64,000 nt of DNA, from assembly GCA_009695465.1 (NCBI GenBank), contig SIAW01000001.1, positions 7,092 to 71,091 of the forward strand. The letters are read 5' to 3'. The first letter of the stretch is position 1, and the number at the start of each line of letters is the position of its first letter. Positions 6,813 through 64,000 of the stretch are shown here, piece after piece. The position numbers and the translations under genes are program-made. This DNA comes from Pedosphaera sp. Its GTDB lineage: Bacteria; Verrucomicrobiota; Verrucomicrobiia; Limisphaerales; UBA1100. The notes beneath the pieces were generated by a model, which was not told the origin of the DNA, did not search any database, and saw only the letters and a list, made by a program, of their open reading frames with translations.

Positions 6813-7807
6813 TTTCCACCCGCCGCGTTGCAACCAAACTGACATCGAACAAACCCATTCATCTGATGCGACTCTGTCTGCCGCTGGCCTGTCTCATTCT
6901 TAGCGGGCCGTTCCTCACGGCAGCGGTACCTGCCACCAAAGAAGTTCCGCCCGCGCCAGTGCCCGCAGCGGTGGGCAATGCGACGGGCAATGGAACAGGC
7001 AGCGCCACGACGCCATCCCCCGCCTCGCCTGCGACAGAAAAACCTGCGGAGGAAAAGGCCGCAGCGAAGGAGGAGAAGACATCGTGGGTCGGCGAGCTGA
7101 CCAATCGCGGGCTTCTGAAGTACATGTTTGACGGCGGCGAATTCATGTGGCCCATCCTCGTCTGCGGCATCCTCGCCATGGCGGTCATTCTCGAGCGCTG
7201 GCGCAGCCTGAAAATGTTGAACACCAACAACGACGCCCTGCGCCAGTCGGTGCTGGACGACCTGACGCACGACCGCTCGGAGCAGGCGCTGGAACGTTGC
7301 GACCGCGAGCGCGGGCCGGTCGCGGCCATCTTGGCCAATGGCCTGCGCAAGTACATCGTGCTGCGGCGGCTGGGTTACGATGCCGGGCGCATCGAGCAGC
7401 AGGTCGTGCAGAGCATGGAAAAATACGGCGTGCATGTGGTCGCCGCGATGGAACGGCACTTGCCGATCCTCGCCATCGTTTCCAGCGTGGCACCGATGAT
7501 CGGGTTTCTGGGAACCGTCGCGGGCATGATTGTTTCCTTCGACGACATCGTGCGGCTGGATCAAAGCGGCGGCGGCACGAACATCGTGACGGCGGCGGCC
7601 GCCGGCATCAAGATCGCCCTCTTGACGACGTGCTTCGGGCTGATCGTCGGCATCCCCGCATTCTCGGCGTACAACTATTTCACCAGCGTCATCAATGGCT
7701 TTGTGCTGGAAGTGGAGGAGACCGCATCGGAACTGATGGAGGCGGTCACCCTGCAACTCACGCTGCAAAAAGCGGAGACCGAGCCCACTCCCTCGCGCGA
7801 CCCATGA
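6809..7807 (+). CDS. exbB: MotA/TolQ/ExbB-family proton channel with an N-terminal signal peptide and a low-complexity periplasmic extension
   Basis: The C-terminal 230 aa show the typical ExbB/TolQ pattern (WPILVCGILAMAVILER..., PMIGFLGTVAGMI, GIKIALLTTCFGLIVGIPA). The ATG overlaps the upstream stop (ATGA at 6809-6812). An alternative start is M20 at 6866. Confidence 0.9.
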   Translation: MISTRRVATKLTSNKPIHLMRLCLPLACLILSGPFLTAAVPATKEVPPAPVPAAVGNATGNGTGSATTPSPASPATEKPAEEKAAAKEEKTSWVGELTNRGLLKYMFDGGEFMWPILVCGILAMAVILERWRSLKMLNTNNDALRQSVLDDLTHDRSEQALERCDRERGPVAAILANGLRKYIVLRRLGYDAGRIEQQVVQSMEKYGVHVVAAMERHLPILAIVSSVAPMIGFLGTVAGMIVSFDDIVRLDQSGGGTNIVTAAAAGIKIALLTTCFGLIVGIPAFSAYNYFTSVINGFVLEVEETASELMEAVTLQLTLQKAETEPTPSRDP

Positions 7808-15084: not shown

Positions 15085-16533
15085 TCAGCCGCGGGCGAAG
15101 ACTTCGCGCACGGCGCGGCCTTTGCCGTCTTCGGTGGCGTAGAAGGGCCGGCGCTCAACATCGAACGCCGTCTTCGGGCTGATGCCCATCGCGGTGAAAA
15201 TGGTCGCGTGCAGATCGGCCACGCTCACGGGATTTTTCACGGCCACGAGCGGGCGCTCGTCCGCGGTGGCGCCGTACACAAAGCCGCGCTTCATTCCGCC
15301 GCCGAACATCACAACACTCGTGCCGCCGGTCCAATGCCGGTGCAGGCCGTAGTGTTTGGCTTCCTGCAACGTCTCGCTCGGCGCAGTGGCTTGATCGCGG
15401 GCGTTGGAGCCGGGGATGCCTTCAATCATCGCGTCACGGCTGAACTCGCTGGCGATGATGACGAGCGTGCGATCGAGCAACCCGCGCGCTTCGAGGTCGA
15501 GCACGAGTTGCGCGATGGGCGCGTCCATCTGTTTGTGCATGCCCGCGACGGTGTCGTGGCCGCTGGCGTGCGTGTCCCAGTGCAGGAACGGCACGTACTC
15601 GGTGGTGACCTCCACAAACCGCGCGCCGTTCTCCACCAATCGCCGCGCGAGCAAACAGCCTTGCCCAAAGCGCCCCGTGTTATACTTGTCAAAACTTTCT
15701 TTCGGCTCCAGCGCGAGGTCGAACGCCGTGCGTTCCTTCGAGCTGATCAGCCGATGCGCATTCTCCATCGAGCGCAGCAACGATTCCTGCTGGTGATCGC
15801 TCATGAATTCGCGATGCGGATTTTTGTCCACGAGCGCACGGAAAAGTTTCTGGCGATTGGCAAAACGGCCCGGCTCCATCCCTTTGGGCGGGCGCACCGA
15901 CTGCGCCGCGTCCTCCGGATACGGCAGGTTCATCGGGCCGAATTCATTCCCAAAAAATCCAGCCGTGGTGAACGCCTTCAACTCCTCCTGCTCGCCCACG
16001 CCTTCCAGCCGCTGGCCGACGTTGATGAACGCGGGCATCACCGCGTTGCGCGGCCCGAGCACGCGCGACATCCACGCGCCCAAGTGCGGCGCGGCCACCG
16101 TCTGCGGCGGCACGTAGCCCGTGTGCCAATGATATTGGTGGCGCGAATGAAGGATGTTCCCGAGATCCGGCTGCACCGCGCTGCGGATGAGCGTCGCGCG
16201 ATCCATCACCTTGGCGATGCGCTCGAGCCCCTGACAAATCTTCACGCCATCCACCGCCGTCGGGATCGCCGGGAATGTGCTGAGAATATTTTTCACCAGC
16301 GCGCCCTTTTCGAAAGGCTGATACCGCTTCGGATCGAACGTCTCCGGCGCCGCCATGCCGCCGCCCATCCACAGCAGGATGCACGCGTCCGCCGTGGGTT
16401 TGGGTTGGACGAACTTTTCGTCGGCGAAAAGTCGCGGCGCGCTCATCGACATCGTGGCCGTCGTGGCGGCGGCGAGCTGCTGCAAGAATTCGCGCCGGGT
16501 GTTTTGAGGATCGAGGGGCGACATGTTCATCAT
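15085..16533 (-). CDS. DUF1501-domain protein (sulfatase-like fold) with a Tat-type signal
   Basis: 'TRREFLQQLAAATTA' twin-arginine-like N-terminus. DUF1501 pattern throughout. It starts 1 nt after the stop of the upstream DUF1553 gene. Confidence 0.9.
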   Translation of the reverse strand: MMNMSPLDPQNTRREFLQQLAAATTATMSMSAPRLFADEKFVQPKPTADACILLWMGGGMAAPETFDPKRYQPFEKGALVKNILSTFPAIPTAVDGVKICQGLERIAKVMDRATLIRSAVQPDLGNILHSRHQYHWHTGYVPPQTVAAPHLGAWMSRVLGPRNAVMPAFINVGQRLEGVGEQEELKAFTTAGFFGNEFGPMNLPYPEDAAQSVRPPKGMEPGRFANRQKLFRALVDKNPHREFMSDHQQESLLRSMENAHRLISSKERTAFDLALEPKESFDKYNTGRFGQGCLLARRLVENGARFVEVTTEYVPFLHWDTHASGHDTVAGMHKQMDAPIAQLVLDLEARGLLDRTLVIIASEFSRDAMIEGIPGSNARDQATAPSETLQEAKHYGLHRHWTGGTSVVMFGGGMKRGFVYGATADERPLVAVKNPVSVADLHATIFTAMGISPKTAFDVERRPFYATEDGKGRAVREVFARG

Positions 16534-16534
16534 A

Positions 16535-18958
16535 TTATCTGACGAGTTGAAACTCCGGTTGCATCATCACCGCCCAGAGCAGGTCTTGTAGTCCTTGGCT
16601 CGTGGGTTGTTCGCCGAGGATTTCGCGCGCGAGCGACATCTCTGCGGCGGTGGGGGTGCGGGACAAGGCAAAGTGATAAAGCCACGTCGCCAACGCATCG
16701 CTGCTCGGCCATTGCTTCGCGAGAATCCGCGCCGCCCCCTGCTCCAATCGCGTGGCGAGAATCTGGCCGTTGTTCAAATCAATCGCCTCCAGCGTGGTCA
16801 ACTCACTGGGACGGACGCTGACGATTTGCTCGCGGTGCGGACGCCCCAATGCGCGCATGAAGAAATCATTTTTCATCAGCGCCGCGCGGACCATCGGCTG
16901 CGTGGCCGTGGCCGCCTGCGCCAGTTGCATGGCCAGTTGTTTGCCCACGCGCGCATTCCACAATGCCGAGTTGGGCACCTCCACGGCTGCTTGCCAGTCG
17001 GCCGGCTCCACCTTGAACTTGCCCTTCGCGTCGGGCTGCGACTGCGTGGATTGCCACGAGGCATCCGTCGCAATCGTGACGACCGTGCCGTCGGCCAGTT
17101 GGATGCGCGCCTCGAAAATGACACCGGCGGGATTCGGGCCAGCGCCGCCATTTTTGGCCACGAGCACAATCTCGTTCGCGCCCGCTTTAAGCCGCGATTC
17201 CAGCGGGATGGCCTCTGGGTTTTCCCAGTTGTCGCCCGCCGCCGCGCGCGTGCCGTTGATGTAGAGGATAAAACTATTGTCCGCCGCGGCCACGGCTCCG
17301 GCGCGGACGGGCGCCGAGGCGAGCGTGAACTTTTTCTGCGCAACCAACGTCTCGCCGGCCTTTGCGTTGCCCGCATCGGCATGCGACCAGATCCAGCGCG
17401 CCGCGAGTTTCATTTCGCTCACGGTTTGGGTGCTGACCTTGCCGCGCACGACTTGCGCATCAAACCGCGTCGGCGCAGTGCCCGTGACTTGCCACACCGC
17501 ATCCACGAATTGCTCGGCGGTCAACCGCTTGGCGCGCGGCCCGGCGTAAAAGTAGCCGCGCTCGTCCGCGTCGCGGCCCAGCACCTGCGCGCGCGATTGA
17601 TACGCCGCAGAGGTGGCGATGAGTTCCAATGTTTTCTTCAGGTCAAATTGATTGTCCGCCAAATGCACGGCGAGATAGTCCAGCAAGTCGTGGCTCCACG
17701 GCTCGGTCTGCATCGCGTCGGTGGGATGCACAATGCCGCGGCCCATGAGCCGATGCCAAAATCGGTTGACGATCGTGCGCGTGAACCGCCCATTCTCCGG
17801 ATGCGTCATCAGCGCGGCGAGCTGCTTGAGCCGCTCCGGCTGCGGCGCAGTCGCGTTCACCTCGCCCAATTCCGGGAAAAGCCAGCCCGCCTTTGCGGTC
17901 TTGCCGAGCGGCTTGTCGCAACGGTGCAGCTCCAACTTGCCCGTCGCATAAATCGCCGCCAACCCGAACGATTCCTCGAGCTTCCAACGGTCAATGAAAC
18001 TGTCGTGGCACGAGGCGCACTTGAGGTTGATGCCCAGAAAACTCTGCCCCACCGACTGTGCGAATTGAATCTCCGGCGTCGCGCCCGCGCTCACATCGCC
18101 GCGCCAGCGGATGCCCGCCGCGAAACCCTCGCTCTCCGGCGTGTACGCGATCAACTCGCGCGCGAACTGGTCGTAGGTTTTGTTTTCCACCAACGCGCGG
18201 TAAAGCCAGCCGGTGATCTGCTTGCGACCACCCGTGATGAAGCCCGTGCCGGAATAATCGTTTCGCAACAGGTCATTCCAGAACGTCAGCCAATGCTCCG
18301 CGTAGGCCGTGTTGTTGGCGAGCAGCTCGCGCACGAGGCGCGCGCGTTTGTCGGCGGATTTGTCAGCGAGGAATTTCTCCAGCGCCACCGGCTCCGGCAA
18401 CAGGCCGACGAGATCCAAGTGCGCGCGGCGCGCGAACGTCCCGTCGTCAATCGGCGCGGGCCGCGGTGATTTGTGCTGCGCGAGATGCGCGTCGAGAATG
18501 CGATCCACGGCGTTCGTGCGCCCCGCGACTGCGGGCGGCAACACTGGGCGGCGCGGCCGCAGCGGCGGCTCGTATCCCGCTTTTTTGAACGCGAACCCCT
18601 CGTCCCACGGCAGGCCCGCATCAATCCACCCGCGCAGCAACGCCACCTTTTCCGGCGAAAGCCGCGCGCCCTTCGGCGGCATCTGCTTCTCTGCATCCTT
18701 CGAAGTAATGGCCGCGATGAGCTTGGATTTCGCGCTATCGCCGGCGATGACCACCTTGCCGTTCTCGCCACCCGCGAGCAGATCGGCGCGCGTGTTCATC
18801 GAAAGCCCACCCTTCTTTTTGTCCCCCGTGTGACACTCCGCGCAATGCTCGCGCAGCACGGGCACGATCTGATGCGCAAAATCCAACGGCGCCGCTCCAG
18901 CGTGGATTGCGCCGAGCGTGAGGAGTAATGCAAACGCCAATCGAAAGCAGTTGGCCAT
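16535..18958 (-). CDS. PSCyt1/DUF1549/DUF1553 (planctomycete cytochrome-c-domain) protein with an inserted beta-sandwich module
   Basis: Signal peptide MANCFRLAFALLLTLGAIHA. 'CAECHTGDKKKGGLSM' heme-binding-like motif. DUF1549 and DUF1553 regions. Start taken at ATG 18958 rather than the track start at 19087. Confidence 0.88.
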   Translation of the reverse strand: MANCFRLAFALLLTLGAIHAGAAPLDFAHQIVPVLREHCAECHTGDKKKGGLSMNTRADLLAGGENGKVVIAGDSAKSKLIAAITSKDAEKQMPPKGARLSPEKVALLRGWIDAGLPWDEGFAFKKAGYEPPLRPRRPVLPPAVAGRTNAVDRILDAHLAQHKSPRPAPIDDGTFARRAHLDLVGLLPEPVALEKFLADKSADKRARLVRELLANNTAYAEHWLTFWNDLLRNDYSGTGFITGGRKQITGWLYRALVENKTYDQFARELIAYTPESEGFAAGIRWRGDVSAGATPEIQFAQSVGQSFLGINLKCASCHDSFIDRWKLEESFGLAAIYATGKLELHRCDKPLGKTAKAGWLFPELGEVNATAPQPERLKQLAALMTHPENGRFTRTIVNRFWHRLMGRGIVHPTDAMQTEPWSHDLLDYLAVHLADNQFDLKKTLELIATSAAYQSRAQVLGRDADERGYFYAGPRAKRLTAEQFVDAVWQVTGTAPTRFDAQVVRGKVSTQTVSEMKLAARWIWSHADAGNAKAGETLVAQKKFTLASAPVRAGAVAAADNSFILYINGTRAAAGDNWENPEAIPLESRLKAGANEIVLVAKNGGAGPNPAGVIFEARIQLADGTVVTIATDASWQSTQSQPDAKGKFKVEPADWQAAVEVPNSALWNARVGKQLAMQLAQAATATQPMVRAALMKNDFFMRALGRPHREQIVSVRPSELTTLEAIDLNNGQILATRLEQGAARILAKQWPSSDALATWLYHFALSRTPTAAEMSLAREILGEQPTSQGLQDLLWAVMMQPEFQLVR

Positions 18959-19061
18959 GCGCGCAGGATGACTTGGGCGCGGGATGCAGACCAGCACTCT
19001 TTGACAGACGTGCGCCGGCGCCGGCGGGGTTTGACAGGATGCGGGCGAGGGCGGCACTGTG

Positions 19062-21152
19062 ATGGGGATGACAGCCACGATATACATTTTGCGGACGGCG
19101 TGTGTCGTCGCAGTTTGCCTTGCACAGATTTCCCGCGCAGCAGAATTGGACGTGTGCGTTTATGGCGGCACCTCCGGCGGCGTGGCAGCAGCGGTGCAAG
19201 CCCGGCGGATGGGCCGCACGGTCGTGCTGATCGAACCGACGAAGCGCTTGGGTGGATTGACCACTGGCGGACTCGGGCAGACGGACATCGGCAACAAGGC
19301 GGCCATCGGCGGCATCGCGCGCGAATTTTATCAGCGCATCCACGCGCATTATCAGAAGGGCACCGCGTGGAAGTGGCAGGCGCGCGAGACGTACCGCGAT
19401 GGGGGTCAGACGCAGACCGGCACGGGCGAAGACACGATGTGGACCTTCGAGCCGAGTGCGGCGTTGAAGGTGATGAACGACCTCGTGCGCGAAGCCGGCG
19501 TGGAGGTCGTGTACGGCGAGCGGCTCAATCGCAAGGATGGCGTGAAGAAAGACGGCGCGCGCATCGTGTCCATCGCGATGGAATCGGGCCGCGTGTTCGA
19601 GGCGAAGATGTTCATCGATGCCACGTACGAAGGCGACCTGCTGGCGGCGACGGGCGCCAGCTACACGGTCGGGCGCGAGGCGAATAGTCAGTACAACGAG
19701 ACGCTCAACGGCGTGCAGACGAAGAACGCGCGGCATCATCAGTTTGTCACGGGCGTGGATCCGCATGTGAAGAAGGGCGATGCGGCGAGCGGCCTGCTGC
19801 CGTTCATCGAATCTAAAAGTCCCGACGCGGACGGCGCGGGTGATCGGCGTGTGCAGGCGTACAATTTCCGCATGTGCCTCACCGATCATCCGGAGAATCG
19901 CATCCCGTTCGCCAAGCCCGATGGCTACGACGAGCAGTGGTACGAGCTGCTCTTCCGCAATTACGAGGCCGGCTACACGGGGATTCCGTGGAACAACGCC
20001 GCGATGCCCAATCGCAAGACTGACGTGAACAACAACCACGGTTTCTCCACCGACTTCATCGGGCAGAACTACGCCTACCCCGAGGCCAGCGACGCCGAGC
20101 GCGAGAAGATTGTCGCGCGCCATCGGTTCTATCAGATCGGGCTGATGTGGACGCTCGGCAACCATCCGCGCGTGCCGGTGGCCGTGCGCAAGGAGGTGTC
20201 GCGCTGGGGCAAATGCAAAGATGAGTTCGCCGACACGGATCATTGGCAGGAACAAATCTATGTGCGCGAGGCGCGGCGCATGGTCGGCGAGCAGGTGATG
20301 ACGCAGCACCATTGTCAGGGCCGTGTCGTGGCGGAAGATGCCGTGGGCATGGCCGCGTACACGATGGACTCGCACAACATCCAGCGCCATGTGGATGCCC
20401 GCGGCCACGTCCGCAACGAGGGCGACGTGCAGGTCGGCGGCTTCCCGCCGTATCCCATCAGTTATCGCTCGCTCGTGCCCAAGTCTGCGGAATGCCCCAA
20501 CCTGCTCGTGCCCGTTTGCCTTTCAGCCACGCACATCGCCTACGGTTCCATCCGCATGGAGCCGGTCTTCATGGTGCTGGGCCAGTCTGCGGCGACGGCG
20601 GCGCTGCATGCGATTGACGAGAAGGTCGCTGTGCAGAAGGTGGATTACACCAAGCTGCGCGCGCGGTTGCTGGCGGACAAACAGGCGCTCGAATGGAAAG
20701 GCCCGAAGGCCGGGCCGCCGCCGGTGAGGCTGGATGTGAAGCTCGACGGCATCGTGATGGATGAGGCCGATGCGAAAGGCGCGGGGGATTGGACCGGCTC
20801 CAATTCGCAGCCGTGGAAAGTGGGCGCGGGTTACGTGCACGATGGCAACAGTCGCAAAGGCGAGATGTCGCTCGCCTTCACGCCGCAGATCAAGGAGGCC
20901 GGTGAATACGAGATCATCCTGCTGTGGCCGCCATTTGCCAACCGCGCCACCAACGTGCCCGTGACGGTTGCGCTCGCGGGCGCTGCGCCGCGCACGGTGA
21001 AAGTGAATCAGCGCGACACACGCAGCGGCGGCGTGTTGTCGCTCGGCAAATATCCGCTCGCTGCTGGCATGCCGGTGACGGTCACGGTGTCCAACAAAGA
21101 CACCGACGCCCACGTGGTCTGCGACGCGGTGCAGTTCCGCAAAGCGAAGTAG
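19062..21152 (+). CDS. FAD-dependent oxidoreductase (FAD_oxidored family, often annotated as xanthan-lyase-like) with a C-terminal beta-sandwich
   Basis: 'DVCVYGGTSGGVAAAVQARRMGRTVVLIEP..LGGLTTGG' dinucleotide-binding motif follows a signal-like N-terminus. Alternative starts at 19059 (GTG) and 19068 (ATG). Confidence 0.85.
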   Translation: MGMTATIYILRTACVVAVCLAQISRAAELDVCVYGGTSGGVAAAVQARRMGRTVVLIEPTKRLGGLTTGGLGQTDIGNKAAIGGIAREFYQRIHAHYQKGTAWKWQARETYRDGGQTQTGTGEDTMWTFEPSAALKVMNDLVREAGVEVVYGERLNRKDGVKKDGARIVSIAMESGRVFEAKMFIDATYEGDLLAATGASYTVGREANSQYNETLNGVQTKNARHHQFVTGVDPHVKKGDAASGLLPFIESKSPDADGAGDRRVQAYNFRMCLTDHPENRIPFAKPDGYDEQWYELLFRNYEAGYTGIPWNNAAMPNRKTDVNNNHGFSTDFIGQNYAYPEASDAEREKIVARHRFYQIGLMWTLGNHPRVPVAVRKEVSRWGKCKDEFADTDHWQEQIYVREARRMVGEQVMTQHHCQGRVVAEDAVGMAAYTMDSHNIQRHVDARGHVRNEGDVQVGGFPPYPISYRSLVPKSAECPNLLVPVCLSATHIAYGSIRMEPVFMVLGQSAATAALHAIDEKVAVQKVDYTKLRARLLADKQALEWKGPKAGPPPVRLDVKLDGIVMDEADAKGAGDWTGSNSQPWKVGAGYVHDGNSRKGEMSLAFTPQIKEAGEYEIILLWPPFANRATNVPVTVALAGAAPRTVKVNQRDTRSGGVLSLGKYPLAAGMPVTVTVSNKDTDAHVVCDAVQFRKAK

Positions 21153-58038: not shown

Positions 58039-58128
58039 TGGCGGAGAGGGAGGGATTCGAACCCCCGGTAGGTTTTAGCCTACCCACGCTTTCCAAGCGC
58101 GTGCCTTAAACCACTCAGCCACCTCTCC
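58039..58128 (-). tRNA. tRNA-Ser (anticodon GGA), genomically encoded CCA
   Basis: Hand-folded. Acceptor GGAGAGG/CCTCTCC, anticodon stem CGCGC/GCGTG with loop TTGGAAA, long variable arm, T-arm GGGGG-TTCGAAT-CCCTC, discriminator G + CCA. Confidence 0.9.
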
Positions 58129-58240
58129 GTTGCGGAAAGTCTGGCGCAGCACCGCGATGGGGGCAACGATTTTCGCGCGACAGTTGGGCCTTGAAACTGG
58201 TGCAGGGCTGAGGTTGATTGCTTCAGACACGCGTGCGCTG

Positions 58241-59005
58241 ATGAATGACAATCTGGAAATGAAGGGAGCTTGTGGCCACTGCGGTGGGCACATTGTTTTC
58301 CCGGCGGAGATGCAAGGCCAGATGGCCGGCTGCCCGCATTGTGAGCGCGCAACGATGCTCAAACCGATGCGGGCGCGCCCAGCACAGCCGGTGTCAAAAA
58401 AAGCGGCGGCCGCTTCGGTGTCGTGCCCGCAATGCCGCAAGCCGATGGGCGTTGAGGATGTGATTTGTGTCGCGTGCGGCTTCCGCATGCCTAGTCCGAT
58501 TCCGTGGCTGCGTGTGGCGGTCGTGGCGGTGATGGTGTTGGAGTTGGGCTACCTTGCGCTGCGCTGGACTGGATTGGATTCGACCACGCGCGCGGCCTTG
58601 GCGGGGAAGTTGGGCATCCGCACGGCGGCGGTTGTCAGCACGGGCGGGCCGACGGTGGTTGTTCCAAAAGATTCCAACCAGACCGTCAATGCCGCTCCGC
58701 CGCAGCCAGTGGAGCCAGCCGGACCGGATCAAGGCACGCTGACGCTCGCCGGCACTCCTGCGTTGAAAGAGGACGGCGACTTTCACTACATACAAGGCAC
58801 GGTAAAAAACAACTCCAAGCGCGATGTCTTCTATGAGGTGAAAGTGAAATTCCGCCTGATGGACAAGAACGGCGCGGCGCTGGGCGAGGTGCAGGATTAT
58901 GCGCCGTTCATCGAGCCGGGCAAATCGTGGGATTTCCGCGTGCTGGTGGTGGACATCGACGCGACGAAGTACGAATTCATCGAGCCCATCGGCGGGCGTC
59001 GGTGA
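58241..59005 (+). CDS. Zinc-ribbon + TM + FxLYD-like domain protein
   Basis: 'CGHCGG...CPHCE' and 'CPQC...CVAC' pairs, one TM helix, and a C-terminal 'GDFHYIQGTVKNNSKRDVFYEVKVKFRLMDKNG..GKSWDFRV' resembling FxLYD domains. ATG at 58241 avoids overlap with tRNA-Ser. Confidence 0.65.
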   Translation: MNDNLEMKGACGHCGGHIVFPAEMQGQMAGCPHCERATMLKPMRARPAQPVSKKAAAASVSCPQCRKPMGVEDVICVACGFRMPSPIPWLRVAVVAVMVLELGYLALRWTGLDSTTRAALAGKLGIRTAAVVSTGGPTVVVPKDSNQTVNAAPPQPVEPAGPDQGTLTLAGTPALKEDGDFHYIQGTVKNNSKRDVFYEVKVKFRLMDKNGAALGEVQDYAPFIEPGKSWDFRVLVVDIDATKYEFIEPIGGRR

Positions 59006-59010
59006 AAGGC

Positions 59011-59086
59011 TGGTGGAGCCATGGGGATTCGAACCCCAGACCTTCTCATTGCGAACGAGACGCTCTACCAACTGAGCTATGACCCC
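59011..59086 (-). tRNA. tRNA-Ala (anticodon CGC), genomically encoded CCA
   Basis: Hand-folded. Acceptor GGGGTCA/TGGCTCC with the G3:U70 Ala identity pair, anticodon loop TTCGCAA, T-arm TGGGG-TTCGAAT-CCCCA. Confidence 0.9.
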
Positions 59087-59139
59087 AACGCGAGGCCCTG
59101 TCTTACGGCCAGCCTGTGACCGTGGCAAGGGCAAACAAA

Positions 59140-59226
59140 TGGTGCGCCTAAGAGGACTCGAACCTCTACCTCTTTCGAGACTACCACCTCAAGGTAGCGC
59201 GTCTACCAATTCCGCCATAGGCGCAC
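59140..59226 (-). tRNA. tRNA-Leu (anticodon GAG), genomically encoded CCA
   Basis: Hand-folded. Acceptor GTGCGCC/GGCGCAC, anticodon stem CTACC/GGTAG with loop TTGAGGT, long variable arm, T-arm AGAGG-TTCGAGT-CCTCT. Confidence 0.9.
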
Positions 59227-59296: not shown

Positions 59297-62200
59297 CTAC
59301 TTGGCCGGGCGTTTGAAGCGGTAAAGTTTGCCCTCGCGATTGTGATAGATCAGCTCGAAACGCTGGTCGTCGTGCAGTCCCATCAAGAGCATCTGCGCGA
59401 TGTTGGAGTGGAAGATGTCGCGGTGCATCAGATACGCCACGCCCAGATCGTGGGCGATGACCAGATTCAAATCCGACGCGGCACTGCCGGGTGTTAAACC
59501 AGTCTGCCGTTGGCGCACCAACTCGCCTTCCACCGTGGCTCCCGAGGGCAGCTTGGCGGGTGTCGGCCCCTGCGACACGATGAAGAGCTGGTTGAGCCAA
59601 CTGCTCGGCCGATAGATTGTTTGGATTGCACGCCACGGGATTTCCACCGGCACGGCGGCGCGCGTGAATTCGTTGGGCTTGTTGGGTACCGGCGTGGCTT
59701 TTTCGCCCACGAGAACAAGGTGATCCAGCGTCACCTCCTGCACCGCGCCGATGACCACGCGCCCGTCGTGCAGCAGCGCGCCGTGGCGTTTGTCGGTGCC
59801 ATCAAACCAATGTGTCATCGCTTGCCGCGCGAAGTCCTCCAGCACCGCCGGCTCGCGCCGATCCAGTGGCGCTTGAATGACCTGCGGCGTGATGTTCACG
59901 GCAGGATGAATCATCCGCATCGCGGCGGCGACTTGTTGTCCCAACGCCTCGTTGTTGACGTTCCGGCCTGGCCCGGCCAATCCCTGCGCCACGCTTCGGA
60001 TTATCGCGATGCCTTCGGCGGCGCGGGCAGGTTCCAGCCCGGGCATGCCTCCCTGCCCTCGCGTGGTTTCATAGAGGCGCAGGTCGGCGCGATCGACCAG
60101 AAAACGGTCGCCCATGAAAATCGCCTCGGTCTGCGCGGGCAACGCCAGCGTCAGGCGAATGGGCGTCGGATAAAATGTGGGGATGGAATACTCCGCGTCG
60201 CGCGGGATAAACTGCTCGGCATCGGCGCGCAGTGCCCGCGCCAGTTCGATGGGCAGGAATTGGTAGATCTGTTCGCGCAACGCCTCGGCCATCTTTTGGA
60301 TCTTCGCCGGATCTTGCGCCGCAAATTCATCGCCCGCCTTGCCCGACGTTGGCCGCGTGAACGCCGACGGCGACGCAATGGCCGCGCGGCACGCCCAGCG
60401 ATAAGCGTTCTCGATGTCCTGTCCCTGCCCGCGCTGCTTTTGGCTCTCGTGAATCTTGGCCAGTTGCTCGCGTCCTGCGGCCCCTTTCTTGAGGGCCTCA
60501 TTGACGGCGGCAACCAGCGGCGGCGGCAACGACTTCACGTATTCATCGCGCAACAATCCCGCCAGCCGGAACTGCGCCTCGGCATGGCCCTTCTCCGCTG
60601 CCACACCAAACCAGTCGATGGCGATGCGCGGATCGGGTTTGCTGTCGGGCACACTCGCGCCAGTTTGGTGATTCAAGCCCATCTGGAATTCGCGCTCCAC
60701 CGGCCAGAGATCGCGCTCACTGAACTGGCGCATCACCTGCAGGATGGGCAGCAGTTTTTTGGGCAGATAAAAATAGATGTCGCGCGTGGGCGCGGGCGGT
60801 TGGTACTGCGCGCTGCCCAGCTCGCGCGCAATGCCGCGCGGGCCGATTTGGCCAACGGTCGGCAAGCCCGTCCAGTCATCGCGTCCGTCGCGATTGAAAT
60901 CATCCTTCTCACCCAACTCGCTCTTCATCACATGATGCACCGCCAGCGGGCCTTTCTGTGAGTACGCCTCCACTGCGAGTCGGCCGAGATTTGACACCTC
61001 CACCTTGTTGGTGGCGCTGAAAAGGCGCGCAAGAATGTAGATGTCCTCGGTCTGATTGCCGGGGTGACAGATCACGTTGCAGCCGGCGTGATACCACGTG
61101 GCGCCGCCGTAATCCCACCACGTCAACACGTAGTCGCCGGGCTTGGCATGGGCGCGCAGGGCGTCGAGGATTTCCACCGACGGCGTTTCCAGCACCGGCG
61201 GGATGCCACGGCTTTGGTCGCGCGCATGCAGCAGGTTGGGTGTCAAAAACAACACCGTCCCCGCCGTGCCCAGCGCGAAGGCGATGCGTGTCTGCCGCGT
61301 GCCCTGTTGCAATAATCCGGGCAACACACCCGCTGTCAACGCGGCCACGGCCGCCATGAGCGCCAGTGCCAGTGGCGCGTGCTTGGGCGGAACGGCCGCG
61401 TCTTCGCCGGCGAACAGGGTGGCTGTCGTGGCGTCGAGGTATTGGCCCAATACATACACGCCCACGGCCAACCCGATTAGCGCCGTCACGGCGGCGGTGA
61501 TGGCGCGCGGCCAGCCCGAGGTGGCCTCTGCGCCAGATGGCGCACGAGCGACCCATGCCACGGCGAGACCCGTCACGAGGCCGATGGCCCACGGGCCGAA
61601 GGTCAACGGCTCCGGCAACGGTCTGAAGTTGAGTGGATCATACGGCAACGGCTCGTGCAGGGCGCGTGCCAGACAAGCCCACGCGACGCCCATCACCACG
61701 GCGACGCCCAGTCCCACCAGTGCGGGCAGAGCCGGGCGCACGTGCGAAAAGAAATCGGGCTGCGAAACTGGGATGGCTGCCGGTGATGGTTGCGGACGAG
61801 CGTTTCCTCGCATGGCGAAATACACCGCGCCTCCGGCGATGAGAACCAGCAACAGGACGCTGCCGACTTTTATCGACTGCAGAACGATAGGTAGTTCATC
61901 CCAGCCCACTCCGGTGAGGTGGTCGGGGGCCAGTCCGCGCAGCACCAACAGCGACCAGACACCCAAAGCGATGGCGCCCGAACCCAGTAAAACGCGCAGG
62001 GCCAAAAGCACCGGCGGGGTGGCTTTGCCGCGAGTGACAACGGCGGTGATGGCCGCCGTGGCCGCAGCGAGCAGGGCCGCGCCGGACAGAGGCTGCTGGA
62101 ACAGCGCCGTGAAGCGGTCGCCCCAAATCCCGCCGTGCCGTGTCTCGAATTCCGAGCGCAGCAAACAACCCAGCAGCACCATCGCTAGTCCGGTGAAAGC

Positions 62201-64000
62201 GGCGATGAACGTGGGCCATTGCGCGTCGTCTTCATCGGCGGATCGCGCGAGGGTCCATCCCGCCAGCGCCGCCAGCGGCAGGAACGCCCACGGCAGAGGC
62301 GCGCCCGTGATGTTCACCAGCCAACTCCACGTCATGCCGCCCACCGCGGCCACCAACACGGCACGCACGCAGGTGCGCGCGACGGCGTGTGCGCTTTGCC
62401 AAACAAAAAGGTAAGTGAAGGACAGCCCCGCAATTGCAGCGGCGTGGATGGTGAATCGCAGCCCGCCCCACAGTGTGAACACACCGATGCCGACCAAGGG
62501 TGCCGCGATTAAAAATTCCGGATGGCGCCCCGACAGGAGCGCGTAGCCAAACAGCGCCATGATACAGCCCACCACCGTGCCGCCGATGCGCGAGCCAACA
62601 TCGCGTCCGGGAATTTCGCGCGCCTCCTGAATGGTGCTGATGACGTTCTTGAACTGTAAATCCTGTCCAGCGGCCACGACGGAGGTGCGCTCGGAGGACG
62701 GCAGGTATTGTTTGATTTTGAACGCGACCAACGAGAAGGGCGATGAGAAGAGGACCATGCCCAAAAGCGCGATCGCGCAGGCCCAGCGCAGGGAAACCAG
62801 TGGCGATGCCGGTGTGGCCTGCGGCGCGGTGGCAGCGAACAGGCGCGGGATGTATTGCACCAACACGGCGGATCCGGCCACGGCTAGAATCTTCAACAAA
62901 CATATCAGCGCTGGAATCGTGCGCGAGCCTGTCGCGTCCATGACAGGAAACATGGCGTCAACAAACAGGATGCCCAAGGCCACCGGCACGATGGATTGCC
63001 ACGCGGATGGTTGGCGGAAGCGGAACACGACTTGGTGCGCAATGAAGGCCAACCCCAGCGCGGCGGCGATGGACATGCCGGAACGATAACAGAATGGATA
63101 CATCATGATGACCCACGCGCCAGCGACGGCAGACCACAGGCAGTCGCGGCGGACGGCGCGCAGCAGGCAGTACACGATAGCCATCGGGATGGGGACGGAG
63201 AGCATGTCCGTGTCGAAATAGCCGGCCATGCTGCGGTTGTAATAGCTGTTGGCCGTCACCGCCATGAGGGCCGCGAGGAATCCCCAATACGTGAGGCCGT
63301 ACAGGCGGCCGATGAAAATCAGCGGCACCACCAAGAGGCTGCCGATGAATGCGGGCGAATAGGCCATGATTTCCTCGACCGAAATCAGGGAACCTTTGCT
63401 GGCCTTGACGGCGGTTTTTTCTGCGAGCACCAGCGCGTCGGTGACAGCGGCGTTGTTCGTTGGAATTTGCTGTGCGACTTGGCGCGCGGTCTCTGCGGCT
63501 TGTTCTGCGGTTTTGCGCAACATCTTGGGAACCAGAAACGGGCCCGCCAACGATTGTCGCGCTGCGTGGATGGCTAGGGCGGCTGCGGTTGTGGCAGTGG
63601 CGTTGTCGGCAGGCGCGGATTCTAACGCCTGGCCCGCAGCCAAAAGATGGGCGCGCGCCAAGCGCAGGTCGCGATGAACCGGGGCATTGTAAATGTCCAG
63701 CAGCTTGCTGGGGAGCAGCGTGACAGGCCCGTACTTGTAGGCGTCAGGGATTTCCGCATTGTGCTGGTGCAGCCCCAAGTGCGCCTTTTGCACGATGGCC
63801 CCGAAGAAATAGCTGTCGTGCGTGTTGGGCAATAGCTCGCCCTGCCAGTGATAGTCGGCGCGTTTCTCGGGCAGGTTGGCCTCCTCAATCCAGTACAGTC
63901 GGATGAAGGATCCCAAGCTCCACGCGATGAGGATGAGCGCCCACACGCCCCAGATGGACGGTTCGGAATGGCCAGCGGCGGGTTCGGCTGGTGGTGATGT
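59297..64000 (-). CDS. PglB/STT3-family oligosaccharyltransferase, giant variant (>=1549 aa). The N-terminus may extend past the window edge.
   Basis: WWDYG verified at nt 61106-61120. 'NTHDSYFFG', 'ANSYYNRSMAGYFDTDML', 'STIQEAREI' (TIxE) and 'GGLRFTI' (62447-62467) are present. The C-terminal 'IAQMLLMGLHDDQRFELIYHNREGKLYRFK' resembles the PglB C-terminus. The track start at 63946 is a GTG, and the frame stays open to base 64000. Confidence 0.88.
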   Translation of the reverse strand, partial: TSPPAEPAAGHSEPSIWGVWALILIAWSLGSFIRLYWIEEANLPEKRADYHWQGELLPNTHDSYFFGAIVQKAHLGLHQHNAEIPDAYKYGPVTLLPSKLLDIYNAPVHRDLRLARAHLLAAGQALESAPADNATATTAAALAIHAARQSLAGPFLVPKMLRKTAEQAAETARQVAQQIPTNNAAVTDALVLAEKTAVKASKGSLISVEEIMAYSPAFIGSLLVVPLIFIGRLYGLTYWGFLAALMAVTANSYYNRSMAGYFDTDMLSVPIPMAIVYCLLRAVRRDCLWSAVAGAWVIMMYPFCYRSGMSIAAALGLAFIAHQVVFRFRQPSAWQSIVPVALGILFVDAMFPVMDATGSRTIPALICLLKILAVAGSAVLVQYIPRLFAATAPQATPASPLVSLRWACAIALLGMVLFSSPFSLVAFKIKQYLPSSERTSVVAAGQDLQFKNVISTIQEAREIPGRDVGSRIGGTVVGCIMALFGYALLSGRHPEFLIAAPLVGIGVFTLWGGLRFTIHAAAIAGLSFTYLFVWQSAHAVARTCVRAVLVAAVGGMTWSWLVNITGAPLPWAFLPLAALAGWTLARSADEDDAQWPTFIAAFTGLAMVLLGCLLRSEFETRHGGIWGDRFTALFQQPLSGAALLAAATAAITAVVTRGKATPPVLLALRVLLGSGAIALGVWSLLVLRGLAPDHLTGVGWDELPIVLQSIKVGSVLLLVLIAGGAVYFAMRGNARPQPSPAAIPVSQPDFFSHVRPALPALVGLGVAVVMGVAWACLARALHEPLPYDPLNFRPLPEPLTFGPWAIGLVTGLAVAWVARAPSGAEATSGWPRAITAAVTALIGLAVGVYVLGQYLDATTATLFAGEDAAVPPKHAPLALALMAAVAALTAGVLPGLLQQGTRQTRIAFALGTAGTVLFLTPNLLHARDQSRGIPPVLETPSVEILDALRAHAKPGDYVLTWWDYGGATWYHAGCNVICHPGNQTEDIYILARLFSATNKVEVSNLGRLAVEAYSQKGPLAVHHVMKSELGEKDDFNRDGRDDWTGLPTVGQIGPRGIARELGSAQYQPPAPTRDIYFYLPKKLLPILQVMRQFSERDLWPVEREFQMGLNHQTGASVPDSKPDPRIAIDWFGVAAEKGHAEAQFRLAGLLRDEYVKSLPPPLVAAVNEALKKGAAGREQLAKIHESQKQRGQGQDIENAYRWACRAAIASPSAFTRPTSGKAGDEFAAQDPAKIQKMAEALREQIYQFLPIELARALRADAEQFIPRDAEYSIPTFYPTPIRLTLALPAQTEAIFMGDRFLVDRADLRLYETTRGQGGMPGLEPARAAEGIAIIRSVAQGLAGPGRNVNNEALGQQVAAAMRMIHPAVNITPQVIQAPLDRREPAVLEDFARQAMTHWFDGTDKRHGALLHDGRVVIGAVQEVTLDHLVLVGEKATPVPNKPNEFTRAAVPVEIPWRAIQTIYRPSSWLNQLFIVSQGPTPAKLPSGATVEGELVRQRQTGLTPGSAASDLNLVIAHDLGVAYLMHRDIFHSNIAQMLLMGLHDDQRFELIYHNREGKLYRFKRPAK

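What the first reader, a model, noticed from the sequence alone, without database searches (positions are those of the whole stretch)
59297..64000. Bona fide PglB/STT3-type oligosaccharyltransferase in a PVC-like genome
The protein carries, in order, the motifs I recall from Campylobacter PglB. EL1 acidic motif: 'LPNTHDSYFFG' (compare 'ISNDGYAFAEG'). 'ANSYYNRSMAGYFDTDML' (compare 'ANSYYNRTMSGYYDTDML'). EL5 'STIQEAREI' (TIxE; compare 'QTIQEVENV'). 'GGLRFTI' (identical). 'DYVLTWWDYGG' (the WWDYG catalytic motif, verified at 61106-61120). 'TRDIYFYLP' (compare 'TRDIYLYMP'). C-terminus 'IAQMLLMGLHDDQRFELIYHNREGKLYRFK' (compare 'YVQMFFLGNYDKNLFDLVINSRDAKVFKLK'). To my knowledge, characterised bacterial N-oligosaccharyltransferases come from Campylobacterota and a few Desulfobacterota. 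An intact homologue here predicts N-linked (or free-oligosaccharide) glycosylation in this lineage. The gene runs to the window edge, so associated pgl-type glycosyltransferase genes may lie just beyond base 64000.
Basis: partly seen in the sequence, partly recalled or inferred. Interest (0 to 1): 0.75.

Follow-up and report, generated by a model that had tools for sequence, protein, structure and literature searches.

The report
Giant PglB-type oligosaccharyltransferase of Verrucomicrobia
This gene encodes a complete bacterial N-glycosylation enzyme (PglB type) in a Verrucomicrobial genome, more than twice the usual size because of three lineage-specific insertions, and it lies next to a glycan-synthesis operon, so this little-studied lineage probably attaches sugars to proteins as Campylobacter does.

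Summary
Every quoted motif is in one minus-strand ORF (59297..63946, continuing past base 64000; 1603 aa from the ATG seen on identical contigs). It matches both STT3/PglB Pfam domains and C. lari PglB (E=3e-39). The equivalents of D56, R147, D154/D156, E319, R331, R375, WWDYG and I572 are conserved in it and invariant in its nine closest relatives.

The protein is 2.2 times the length of PglB because of three insertions:
- about 100 aa of helices in EL1;
- about 370 aa, or 10 extra predicted transmembrane helices, between TM12 and the last TM;
- about 340 aa (Sel1-like helices plus a small beta-barrel) in the periplasmic domain.

Relatives reach 2412 aa. These giants are a rare clade, monophyletic in 100/100 bootstraps, inside a broader PVC clade of PglB-like genes. 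Sources call them "hypothetical protein" or the generic OST orthologue K07151.

Just beyond base 64000 lies a conserved divergent operon. It encodes a NusG-like antiterminator, four WbpA/B/D/E-like sugar-nucleotide enzymes and an ABC transporter whose counterpart in a relative best matches the PglK flippase. Glycosyltransferases and a priming enzyme were not seen. Activity, glycan and targets are untested.

Verdict: a real, probably active N-OST, and a new variant of a known kind.

The parts
59297..64000 (-). Giant PglB-type OST gene. 1549 codons from GTG 63946 plus 18 more open codons up to the window edge. The likely true start is an ATG 108 nt beyond base 64000 (1603 aa). The stop codon is at 59297-59299.
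   Evidence: Pfam STT3 + STT3-PglB_core; PDB PglB E=3e-39
63758..63946 (-). TM1 and the start of EL1, with the catalytic Asp (D44 = C. lari D56, codon 63815-63817) in LPNTHDSYFFG.
   Evidence: D in 139/140 aligned homologues
63383..63757 (-). Insertion 1 (residues 64-188): about 100 extra residues in external loop 1, predicted as a four-helix periplasmic module. The AET/ARQ.AQ motif is invariant among the giants.
   Evidence: The D56-to-D154 equivalent distance is 201 aa against a median of 100 in 140 homologues. AF2 helices have pLDDT 70-86. dN/dS 0.24.
62399..63382 (-). Conserved TM2-TM12 core (residues 189-516). Contains R238 (=R147), D245/D247 (=D154/D156, 63206-63214), TIQE E441 (=E319, 62624-62635), R453 (=R331) and GGLRFTI R497 (=R375, 62447-62467).
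   Evidence: dN/dS 0.16
61286..62398 (-). Insertion 2 (residues 517-887): about 370 aa of hydrophobic sequence, 10 extra predicted TM helices, inserted where PglB has only the loop before TM13. Includes one strong copy of a family-specific TM-hairpin repeat (residues 530-577, 62216-62359).
   Evidence: Hydropathy; AF2 secondary structure shows 11 long helices after TM12; R375-to-WWD distance 446 aa against a median of 89; repeat HMM; dN/dS 0.33.
60701..61285 (-). Last TM helix plus the periplasmic catalytic core (residues 888-1082). Contains WWDYG (61106-61120) and the MI-type motif LxxIxxxM (I1068 = I572).
   Evidence: dN/dS 0.15
59456..60700 (-). Insertion 3 (residues 1083-1497): about 340 extra periplasmic residues. 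It comprises a Sel1/TPR-like helical repeat (about 1085-1195), a further helical region and a small beta-barrel (about 1387-1448).
   Evidence: Sel1 is weak (21.8 bits, below the cutoff of 30.7). AF2 pLDDT is 80-92 for the helical repeat. Foldseek gives weak Sel1-protein and Hfq/Sm-like hits. The I572-to-end distance is 481 aa against a median of 141. dN/dS 0.23.
59297..59455 (-). Conserved C-terminal beta-strand segment of the PglB periplasmic domain (residues 1498-1549) and the stop codon.
   Evidence: aligns to PglB 664-712

Best explanation
The gene encodes a catalytically competent single-subunit N-oligosaccharyltransferase of the bacterial PglB type in a Pedosphaera-like member of the Verrucomicrobiota.

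Inferred mechanism, by homology with C. lari PglB:
- A polyprenyl-diphosphate-linked oligosaccharide is assembled on the cytoplasmic face. The sugars made by the adjacent operon are probably a 2,3-diacetamido-uronic acid and, in relatives, a nonulosonic acid.
- The neighbouring ABC transporter, which is PglK-like where its sequence could be read in relatives, flips the lipid-linked oligosaccharide to the periplasmic face.
- The OST then transfers the glycan en bloc to the Asn of N-x-S/T sequons. These are probably D/E-x-N-x-S/T, because the R331 equivalent is kept.
- Catalysis uses the metal site formed by D44, D245/D247 and E441. R497 holds the pyrophosphate. WWDYG and I1068 hold the +2 Ser/Thr.

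Shown here: homology, residue conservation, insertion architecture, synteny and purifying selection. Inferred: activity, donor, sequon and targets.

The three lineage-specific insertions (an EL1 helical module, 10 extra TM helices, and a Sel1-like plus beta-barrel periplasmic module) keep the membrane topology parity. They are most plausibly accessory modules for docking partners or substrates, or for assembling the pathway, rather than part of the chemistry.
For: - Domains: Pfam STT3 and STT3-PglB_core both score above cutoff.
- Homology: collinear match to the C. lari PglB structures, E=3e-39. The best Foldseek hit of the C-terminal model is PglB 6gxc.
- Residues: the equivalents of D56, R147, D154, D156, E319, R331, R375, WWDYG and I572 are invariant in the 9 giants and conserved in 108-140 of 140 aligned homologues.
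- Real gene: the identical protein occurs on 10 contigs from several independent samples.
- Selection: dN/dS against a 66%-identical orthologue is 0.10-0.16 in the core and 0.23-0.33 in the insertions.
- Topology: 11 hydrophobic helices follow TM12 where PglB has 1, so the parity that keeps the catalytic domain periplasmic is preserved.
- Synteny: a divergent operon is conserved at all giant loci examined and at two mid-size Verrucomicrobial OST loci. It encodes a NusG/UpxY-like antiterminator, an NDP-sugar dehydrogenase, a 3-dehydrogenase-like GFO enzyme, a hexapeptide acetyltransferase and a DegT aminotransferase.
- Flippase: the operon's ABC transporter in a relative has C. jejuni PglK as its best PDB hit over the full length, E=5e-86, against 181 bits for MsbA.
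Against: - There are no experimental data on activity, glycan or acceptor.
- The NCBIfam PglB equivalog model scores 203 bits against a cutoff of 1300, so this is not an orthologue-level PglB.
- No glycosyltransferase or priming phosphoglycosyltransferase was seen in the 6-10 kb readable next to any giant OST.
- In the window's own genome the ABC transporter is known only from a Pfam listing, with no DNA available. In P0002/L005 the matching position holds a Wzx-type flippase instead.
- The AF2 models are of low confidence (mean pLDDT 47 and 62). The placement of the insertions around the active site is therefore unknown, and they could occlude or alter it.
- The R331 equivalent does not reliably predict the -2 rule (PMC4894442).
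Confidence: 0.8

Rival explanations
1. The enzyme is active, but its main physiological product is free periplasmic oligosaccharide made by hydrolysis of the lipid-linked donor, as C. jejuni PglB also does, rather than glycoproteins.
For: It has the same catalytic apparatus as PglB. No acceptor proteins could be identified here. That PglB releases free oligosaccharide is established knowledge, not tested here.
Against: The peptide-binding elements are conserved under purifying selection: WWDYG, the I572 equivalent and the R331 equivalent. That would not be needed for hydrolysis alone. An added periplasmic Sel1-like protein-interaction module points to protein partners.
Confidence: 0.1
2. It is a dedicated glycosyltransferase of the STT3 fold that modifies one specific partner, or a non-protein acceptor in a cell-envelope polysaccharide pathway. 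The extra TM and Sel1 modules recruit that partner. It is not a general N-glycosylation enzyme.
For: The flanking operon looks like an O-antigen or capsule locus: a NusG/UpxY-type antiterminator, WbpABDE-like genes, Wzx in L005, and NeuB and CMP-transferase genes in relatives. The large lineage-specific insertions have no known family.
Against: All sequon-binding residues of PglB are retained. Known O-antigen ligases and O-OSTs belong to a different family (Wzy_C), which is established knowledge. Mid-size orthologues at the same locus lack the large insertions, so the locus works with an ordinary-looking OST.
Confidence: 0.08
3. It is an assembly chimera, a fused gene or a decaying pseudogene with no function.
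For: The length is unusual, and the Ala/Gly/Leu-rich inserted sequence is of low complexity.
Against: The identical 1549/1603-aa ORF occurs on 10 contigs from independent runs. Collinear orthologues of 1624-2412 aa occur in other MAGs and metagenomes. dN/dS is below 0.35 in every segment. The insertions add an even number of TM helices.
Confidence: 0.02

Closest known systems
Campylobacter lari / C. jejuni PglB (single-subunit bacterial N-OST; PDB 3RCE, 5OGL, 6GXC)
   Same: The order and identity of all functional motifs match: EL1 Asp, R147, DxD, TIxE, R331, GLRFTI Arg, WWDYG, the MI-type motif and the C-terminal beta segment. The catalytic domain is periplasmic. A PglK-type ABC flippase is encoded nearby in relatives.
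   Different: - Length: 1603 aa against 713 aa.
- TM helices: 23 predicted against 13.
- Three insertions, of about +100, +370 and +340 aa.
- Only about 30-35% identity in the alignable blocks, and the NCBIfam equivalog cutoff is not met.
- MI motif: M569 is Leu and V576 is Met.
- Different flanking sugar genes (WbpABDE-like rather than bacillosamine PglDEF), a NusG-like antiterminator, and no pglA/C/H/I/J seen.
Standard and mid-size PglB-like proteins of Verrucomicrobiota, Opitutia and Planctomycetota MAGs (718-1117 aa; for example MSR65836.1 Pedosphaera sp. and MBL62650.1 Opitutae)
   Same: They fall in the same PVC clade in the NJ tree (73% bootstrap). The nearest are 37-40% identical. L013 (889 aa) and L017 (956 aa) share the same divergent operon of NusG-like, WbpBDE-like and, in L013, PglK-like genes.
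   Different: They lack the EL1 insertion and the TM-hairpin insertion: EL1 is 100-103 aa, R375-to-WWD is 91-116 aa, and there are no repeat-HMM hits. Their periplasmic insertion is shorter (210-340 aa after I572, against 481).
Desulfobacterota PglB homologues (D. gigas, D. alaskensis, D. marinus), which are characterised OSTs with a relaxed sequon
   Same: They are bacterial single-subunit OSTs outside the Campylobacterota with the same catalytic motifs (PMC4894442, PMC12229607).
   Different: They were not recovered among the closest relatives here. They are of ordinary size. Some lack the R331 equivalent, which this protein keeps.
Archaeal AglB and eukaryotic STT3
   Same: Same Pfam families and WWDxG catalytic core.
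   Different: The match is far weaker: archaeal loci match only an 80-200-aa stretch. This protein carries the bacterial MI-type motif rather than the DK motif (own knowledge of Kohda-lab motif definitions).

Membership tests
STT3/PglB/AglB oligosaccharyltransferase superfamily (Pfam PF02516 + PF21436) | Both Pfam domains score above their gathering cutoffs | tested here: met
   PF02516 scores 55.5 bits (cutoff 24.5) over residues 188-518. PF21436 scores 69.5 bits (cutoff 23) over residues 937-1080.
STT3/PglB/AglB oligosaccharyltransferase superfamily | WWDxG motif in the periplasmic or lumenal domain | tested here: met
   WWDYG at residues 943-947 (61106-61120). W, W, D and G are present in 140/140 homologues.
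Bacterial PglB-type N-OST | Metal and catalytic acidic residues: EL1 Asp (D56), DxD (D154/D156) and the TIxE Glu (E319) | tested here: met
   D44, D245/D247 and E441 align to these residues. They are invariant in the 9 giants and present in 137-139 of 140 homologues.
Bacterial PglB-type N-OST | Arg residues that contact the donor and acceptor (R147, R375) and the -2 specificity Arg (R331) | tested here: met
   R238, R497 and R453 align to these residues. They are conserved in 138, 140 and 131 of 140 homologues. Presence of the R331 equivalent does not prove the minus-two rule.
Bacterial PglB-type N-OST | MI motif MxxIxxx(I/V/W), which binds the +2 Ser/Thr | tested here: inconclusive
   The motif here is LxxIxxxM: I1068 is conserved, M569 is replaced by L and V576 by M. 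L occurs at the first position in 25/140 homologues and M at the last position in 7/140.
Bacterial PglB-type N-OST | 13-TM topology with a C-terminal periplasmic domain | tested here: not met
   About 23 TM helices are predicted, 10 more than PglB, inserted after TM12. The parity that keeps the C-terminal domain periplasmic is preserved. This is variant architecture, not loss of the fold.
PglB equivalog (NCBIfam NF050801, Campylobacter-type undecaprenyl-diphosphooligosaccharide--protein glycotransferase) | Whole-protein score above the curated cutoff | tested here: not met
   202.6 bits against a cutoff of 1300. It is a homologue, not an equivalog.
pgl-type N-glycosylation locus | The OST is clustered with an LLO flippase, sugar-nucleotide enzymes, a priming phosphoglycosyltransferase and glycosyltransferases | tested here: inconclusive
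   The flippase (PglK-like, E=5e-86 to 5C73/6HRC, measured in a relative) and four sugar-nucleotide enzymes are adjacent. No glycosyltransferase or PglC/WecA-type gene lies within the 6-10 kb readable.
Bacterial PglB-type N-OST | Demonstrated transfer of glycan from a lipid carrier to Asn | not testable with these tools
   Needs heterologous complementation or glycoproteomics.

The most novel reading that the evidence does not exclude
The giant OSTs are more than enlarged PglBs. The inserted 10 to roughly 26 TM helices (a repeated hairpin module) and the Sel1/beta-barrel periplasmic module could form a built-in scaffold. Such a scaffold would couple LLO delivery from the PglK-type flippase, or acceptor recruitment, directly to catalysis. 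That would be a bacterial single-chain analogue of the accessory subunits of the eukaryotic OST complex. It would operate in a previously unrecognised general N-glycosylation system of free-living Verrucomicrobiota that uses diacetamido-uronic and nonulosonic acid glycans.
Probability: 0.2. Interest if true: 0.8.

Novelty: new variant of a known kind. Interest (0 to 1): 0.6.

Why it matters
Characterised bacterial N-OSTs come from the Campylobacterota, a few Desulfobacterota and one member of the Aquificae (PMC4894442, PMC12229607).

An intact, selected PglB-type enzyme with a conserved flippase and sugar operon in the Verrucomicrobiota would extend Asn-linked protein glycosylation to abundant soil, freshwater and marine PVC bacteria. 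It would also supply new enzymes for glycoengineering.

To my knowledge the giant forms (1549-2412 aa, about 23 or more TM helices) are far larger than any described single-subunit OST. They offer a natural experiment in how accessory membrane and periplasmic modules can be grafted onto the STT3 core without disturbing its catalytic residues.

Tried and rejected
- **Second word-index protein search.** The search with the conserved TM core (residues 185-520) returned only one 377-aa fragment and was useless.
- **AlphaFold2 on two overlapping fragments, with only 9 aligned sequences.** The N-terminal fragment had mean pLDDT 47, so it was used only for secondary structure and helix counting and was not fold-searched. 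The C-terminal fragment had pLDDT 62. Only its PglB hit and the weak Sel1 and Sm-like hits are reported, as tentative.
- **Looking further up the flanking operon for glycosyltransferases.** I scanned the metagenome collection with a DegT protein from L087. The target contig was not among the 80 loci returned. The related locus L092 showed more sugar-modification genes (NeuB, AsnB-type amidotransferase, methyl- and sulfotransferase) but no glycosyltransferase, and it is not demonstrably linked to a giant OST.
- **A strict regular expression for the TM-hairpin repeat.** It missed most copies and was replaced by an HMM.
- **Pfam on the inserted regions and on larger relatives.** No additional family was found.
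- **Sequon-enrichment analysis of the window's roughly 50 genes.** Considered and not run, because it would have too little power.
- **Chimera or pseudogene reading.** Rejected.
Full report
**1. Observation**

The region holds one long ORF on the minus strand, 59297..63946 (GTG start, 1549 aa). WWDYG is residues 943-947, which maps exactly to 61106-61120.

The frame stays open for the 18 codons up to base 64000. On contigs that encode the identical protein, the ORF begins at an ATG 162 nt upstream of the GTG, one codon after an in-frame TAA. That gives 1603 aa, which is the length of the GenBank cluster member MSU40386.1. The nearest orthologue conserves the residues just upstream of the GTG. 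The gene therefore does run off the window edge, and it is the 5' end that does so.

The identical protein was found on 10 contigs from several independent runs. It is not an assembly artefact.

**2. Identity**

- Pfam gives STT3 (55.5 bits) and STT3-PglB_core (69.5 bits), both above cutoff, plus a sub-threshold Sel1 repeat.
- phmmer against PDB puts the C. lari PglB structures first (3RCE E=3.3e-39, also 5OGL and 6GXC). The match is in collinear pieces: query 4-63 to PglB 19-75, 189-514 to 98-392, 918-1082 to 438-586, and 1498-1546 to 664-712.
- From these alignments the functional residues map as follows: D44=D56, R238=R147, D245/D247=D154/D156, E441=E319, R453=R331, R497=R375, W943-G947=WWDYG, I1068=I572.
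- All of these are invariant in the nine closest relatives. They are conserved in 108-140 of 140 aligned PglB-like sequences.
- The MI motif reads LxxIxxxM. These substitutions also occur in other family members.
- The NCBIfam PglB equivalog model scores only 203 bits against a cutoff of 1300. This is a homologue, not an orthologue-level PglB.

**3.

The protein is 2.2 times the length of PglB. The table compares segment lengths between conserved anchors with the medians of the 140-sequence alignment.

| Segment (C. lari numbering) | This protein | Median of 140 | Other giants |
|---|---|---|---|
| D56 to D154 (EL1) | 201 aa | 100 aa | 205-222 aa |
| R375 to WWDYG | 446 aa | 89 aa | 486-1255 aa |
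| I572 to C-terminus | 481 aa | 141 aa | 443-514 aa |

*Insertion 1* (residues 64-188) lies in EL1. It is predicted as four long helices with pLDDT 70-86.

*Insertion 2* (residues 517-887) is hydrophobic.
- Hydropathy and AF2 secondary structure both give 11 long helices after TM12 (residues 498-516), where PglB has only TM13.
- That is 10 extra TM helices, about 23 in all. The number added is even, so the catalytic domain stays periplasmic.
- In my reading of the loop sequences, most predicted cytoplasmic loops are Arg/Lys-rich, which agrees with this topology. One of them (RSADEDDAQW) is acidic.
- The insertion contains a TM-hairpin repeat, roughly GGLxWxWLA...G.P...LWPLGALAG.AVAR. An HMM built from it finds 1 strong copy here and 5 copies in most of the roughly 2200-aa relatives. 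It finds none in the standard-size PglB-like proteins screened; the only other hit was P0166, a 342-aa fragment.

*Insertion 3* (residues 1083-1497) is periplasmic.
- It holds a helical repeat that AF2 models confidently (pLDDT 80-92, about residues 1085-1195). This overlaps the weak Sel1 hit.
- More helices and a small beta-barrel follow (about residues 1387-1448).
- Foldseek of the C-terminal model puts PglB first (6GXC, E=4.7e-4). Sel1-repeat proteins and Hfq/Sm-like barrels follow only weakly.

Both AF2 models have low overall confidence (mean pLDDT 47 and 62). I use them only for secondary structure and for these local statements.

All segments are under purifying selection against the 66%-identical orthologue. 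dN/dS is 0.10-0.16 in the core and 0.23-0.33 in the insertions. dS is about 1.2 and therefore saturated, so the values are rough.

**4. Organism and distribution**

- A cluster member at 90% identity or more is named 'MAG: hypothetical protein [Pedosphaera sp.]'. Other giants come from Verrucomicrobiales MAGs and Tara Oceans assemblies.
- The window also carries the PVC-typical DUF1501 and PSCyt1/PSCyt2/PSD1 genes.
- An exhaustive HMMER search of 1.84 billion cluster representatives found 522 relatives at E<=1e-3. The giants collapse to three representatives of 1549, 2213 and 2188 aa. The score then drops from 658 to 351 bits for proteins of 700-1117 aa.
- The nearest of those smaller proteins that carry a source name come from Pedosphaera, Verrucomicrobiales/Limisphaerales and Opitutae MAGs. 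NCBI calls them 'hypothetical protein'. JGI calls them dolichyl-diphosphooligosaccharide--protein glycosyltransferase, and Tara assigns K07151.
- Among 185,579 GTDB species representatives, giant forms appeared in only two Verrucomicrobial MAGs. Ordinary-size homologues appeared in Verrucomicrobiota, Opitutia, Planctomycetota and Phycisphaerae, in one Gammaproteobacteria MAG and in many Campylobacterota. The scan was pattern-limited and capped.
- In an NJ tree (140 sequences, 654 columns) the giants fall inside a PVC clade that is separate from the Campylobacterota. On a 61-sequence subset, bootstrap support is 100% for monophyly of the giants, 70% for their grouping with P0035, P0036 and L010, and 73% for the PVC clade.

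**5. Genomic context**

Downstream, at lower window coordinates, lie three tRNA genes, a zinc-ribbon membrane protein, a ComM/Mg-chelatase-like gene and an amino-acid ABC transporter. None is related to glycosylation.

Upstream, just beyond base 64000 and transcribed divergently, is a conserved operon:
- a small basic protein;
- a NusG paralogue, best matched by the UpxY, LoaP and RfaH antiterminator models, all below cutoff;
- a 151-aa regulator-like protein;
- an NDP-sugar dehydrogenase (TIGR03026, above cutoff);
- a GFO/IDH/MocA oxidoreductase, best matched by UDP-GlcNAc 3-dehydrogenase;
- a hexapeptide N-acetyltransferase;
- a DegT aminotransferase;
- an ABC_membrane+ABC_tran transporter.

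From established knowledge of the P. aeruginosa pathway, the four enzymes are the WbpA/B/E/D set that makes UDP-2,3-diacetamido-2,3-dideoxy-glucuronic acid. That assignment is an inference and was not tested here.

The arrangement is conserved at all the other giant loci examined (L005, L006, L007, L008, L087, L088). It is also conserved next to two mid-size Verrucomicrobial OSTs, L013 (889 aa) and L017 (956 aa). The giants are therefore expanded orthologues at an older Verrucomicrobial locus.

The ABC transporter from L087 has C. jejuni PglK/WlaB as its best PDB match over the full length (E=5e-86, 293 bits, against 181 bits for MsbA). In L005 a Wzx-type flippase occupies the corresponding position. 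Relatives continue with genes for nonulosonic-acid synthesis: PseB/PseC-like genes, a CMP-transferase, a GNAT acetyltransferase and NeuB.

No glycosyltransferase or priming phosphoglycosyltransferase lies in the 6-10 kb that could be read at any locus. An attempt to read further failed.

**6. Mechanism**

The best-supported reading is a functional PglB-type N-OST (confidence about 0.8).
- A polyprenyl-PP-linked oligosaccharide, containing sugars made by the adjacent operon, is flipped by the PglK-like (or Wzx) transporter.
- The glycan is then transferred to Asn in N-x-S/T sequons.
- Catalysis uses the D44/D245/D247/E441 metal site, R497 on the pyrophosphate, and WWDYG and I1068 on the +2 hydroxy-amino acid.
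- The conserved R331 equivalent suggests a D/E at position -2. Ollis et al. (PMC4894442) show that this residue is not a sufficient predictor.

Homology, residue conservation, topology parity, selection and synteny are shown here. Activity, donor, sequon and acceptors are inferred. The insertions have no detectable homologues outside this clade. Their role as a scaffold, partner dock or substrate recruiter is speculation.

Rival readings:
- Mainly free-oligosaccharide release: about 0.1.
- A dedicated envelope-polysaccharide or single-substrate transferase: about 0.08.
- Artefact or pseudogene: about 0.02, effectively excluded.

**7. Novelty**

Full-text searches found no report of PglB or STT3 function in Verrucomicrobia. 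Surveys list Epsilonproteobacteria, a few Deltaproteobacteria and Aquificae (PMC4894442), and recent bioprospecting stays within the Desulfobacterota (PMC12229607).

The enzyme class is well known, and uncharacterised PVC homologues already sit in databases, so the taxonomic extension alone is a new member of a known kind. The giant architecture has no counterpart among the 140 aligned homologues or, to my knowledge, among described OSTs. That architecture is an enlarged EL1, 10 extra TM helices here and proportionally longer inserts in relatives, built from a repeated hairpin, and a periplasmic domain more than twice the usual length. I rate it a new variant of a known kind, with interest 0.6.

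Noticed in passing
beyond window base 64000; L001:4798-5301 (-) and the equivalent genes in L005, L006, L087, L088, L013, L017: A NusG paralogue (167 aa) is the second gene of the divergent glycan operon at every locus. It best matches the UpxY, LoaP and RfaH specialised antiterminator models, all below cutoff. A conserved small basic protein precedes it and a 150-190-aa regulator-like protein follows. This suggests processive antitermination control of a Verrucomicrobial glycan operon.
   Followed up: partly
P0003, P0004, P0005, P0006, P0007, P0008, P0009 (relatives, about 2200-2400 aa): The larger relatives carry up to 5 copies of the TM-hairpin repeat. They also have a roughly 150-aa polar, helix-rich segment in the middle of the TM insertion (conserved ...LTQFQ..AF..L.K.Y..QR..WR...). 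P0005 has a further roughly 90-aa Lys/Glu/Gln-rich (KEQ-rich), coiled-coil-like insert. The function and the membrane side of these segments are unknown.
   Followed up: partly
window 58039-59224 (-): Three tRNA genes, Ser(GGA), Ala(CGC) and Leu(GAG), lie between the ComM-like gene and the 3' end of the OST gene. A 291-aa ORF on the opposite strand (58130-59005), with CxxC zinc-ribbon-like motifs and a TM segment, lies among them.
   Followed up: no
window 81-6812 (+) and 6809-7807 (+): A 2243-aa TPR-rich protein with an F5/8 type C (discoidin) domain is followed, with overlapping stop and start codons, by a MotA/TolQ/ExbB-family protein.
   Followed up: no
window 15085-19087 (-): A PVC-hallmark gene pair: a DUF1501 protein (482 aa) downstream of a PSCyt1/PSCyt2/PSD1 'Planctomycete cytochrome C' protein (850 aa). 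It supports the PVC assignment of the window.
   Followed up: partly
window 19059-21152 (+): An FAD-dependent oxidoreductase (PF12831) fused to a C-terminal Golvesin_C domain.
   Followed up: no
L010 (contig CAMDOH010000006.1): A MAG titled 'Akkermansia muciniphila isolate TrH-03may19-259' carries a 718-aa PglB-like gene that groups in the tree with P0036, a Pedosphaera sp. MAG protein. Either the MAG's species label is doubtful or the contig is mis-binned. Its flanks lack the NusG-like/WbpBDE operon.
   Followed up: partly
L054 (OZ245880.1, 2.68-Mb chromosome of a Gammaproteobacteria MAG): A 733-aa PglB-like gene in a gammaproteobacterial genome, identical or nearly identical to representative P0135 in the tree. 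This is another lineage outside the classical PglB hosts.
   Followed up: no
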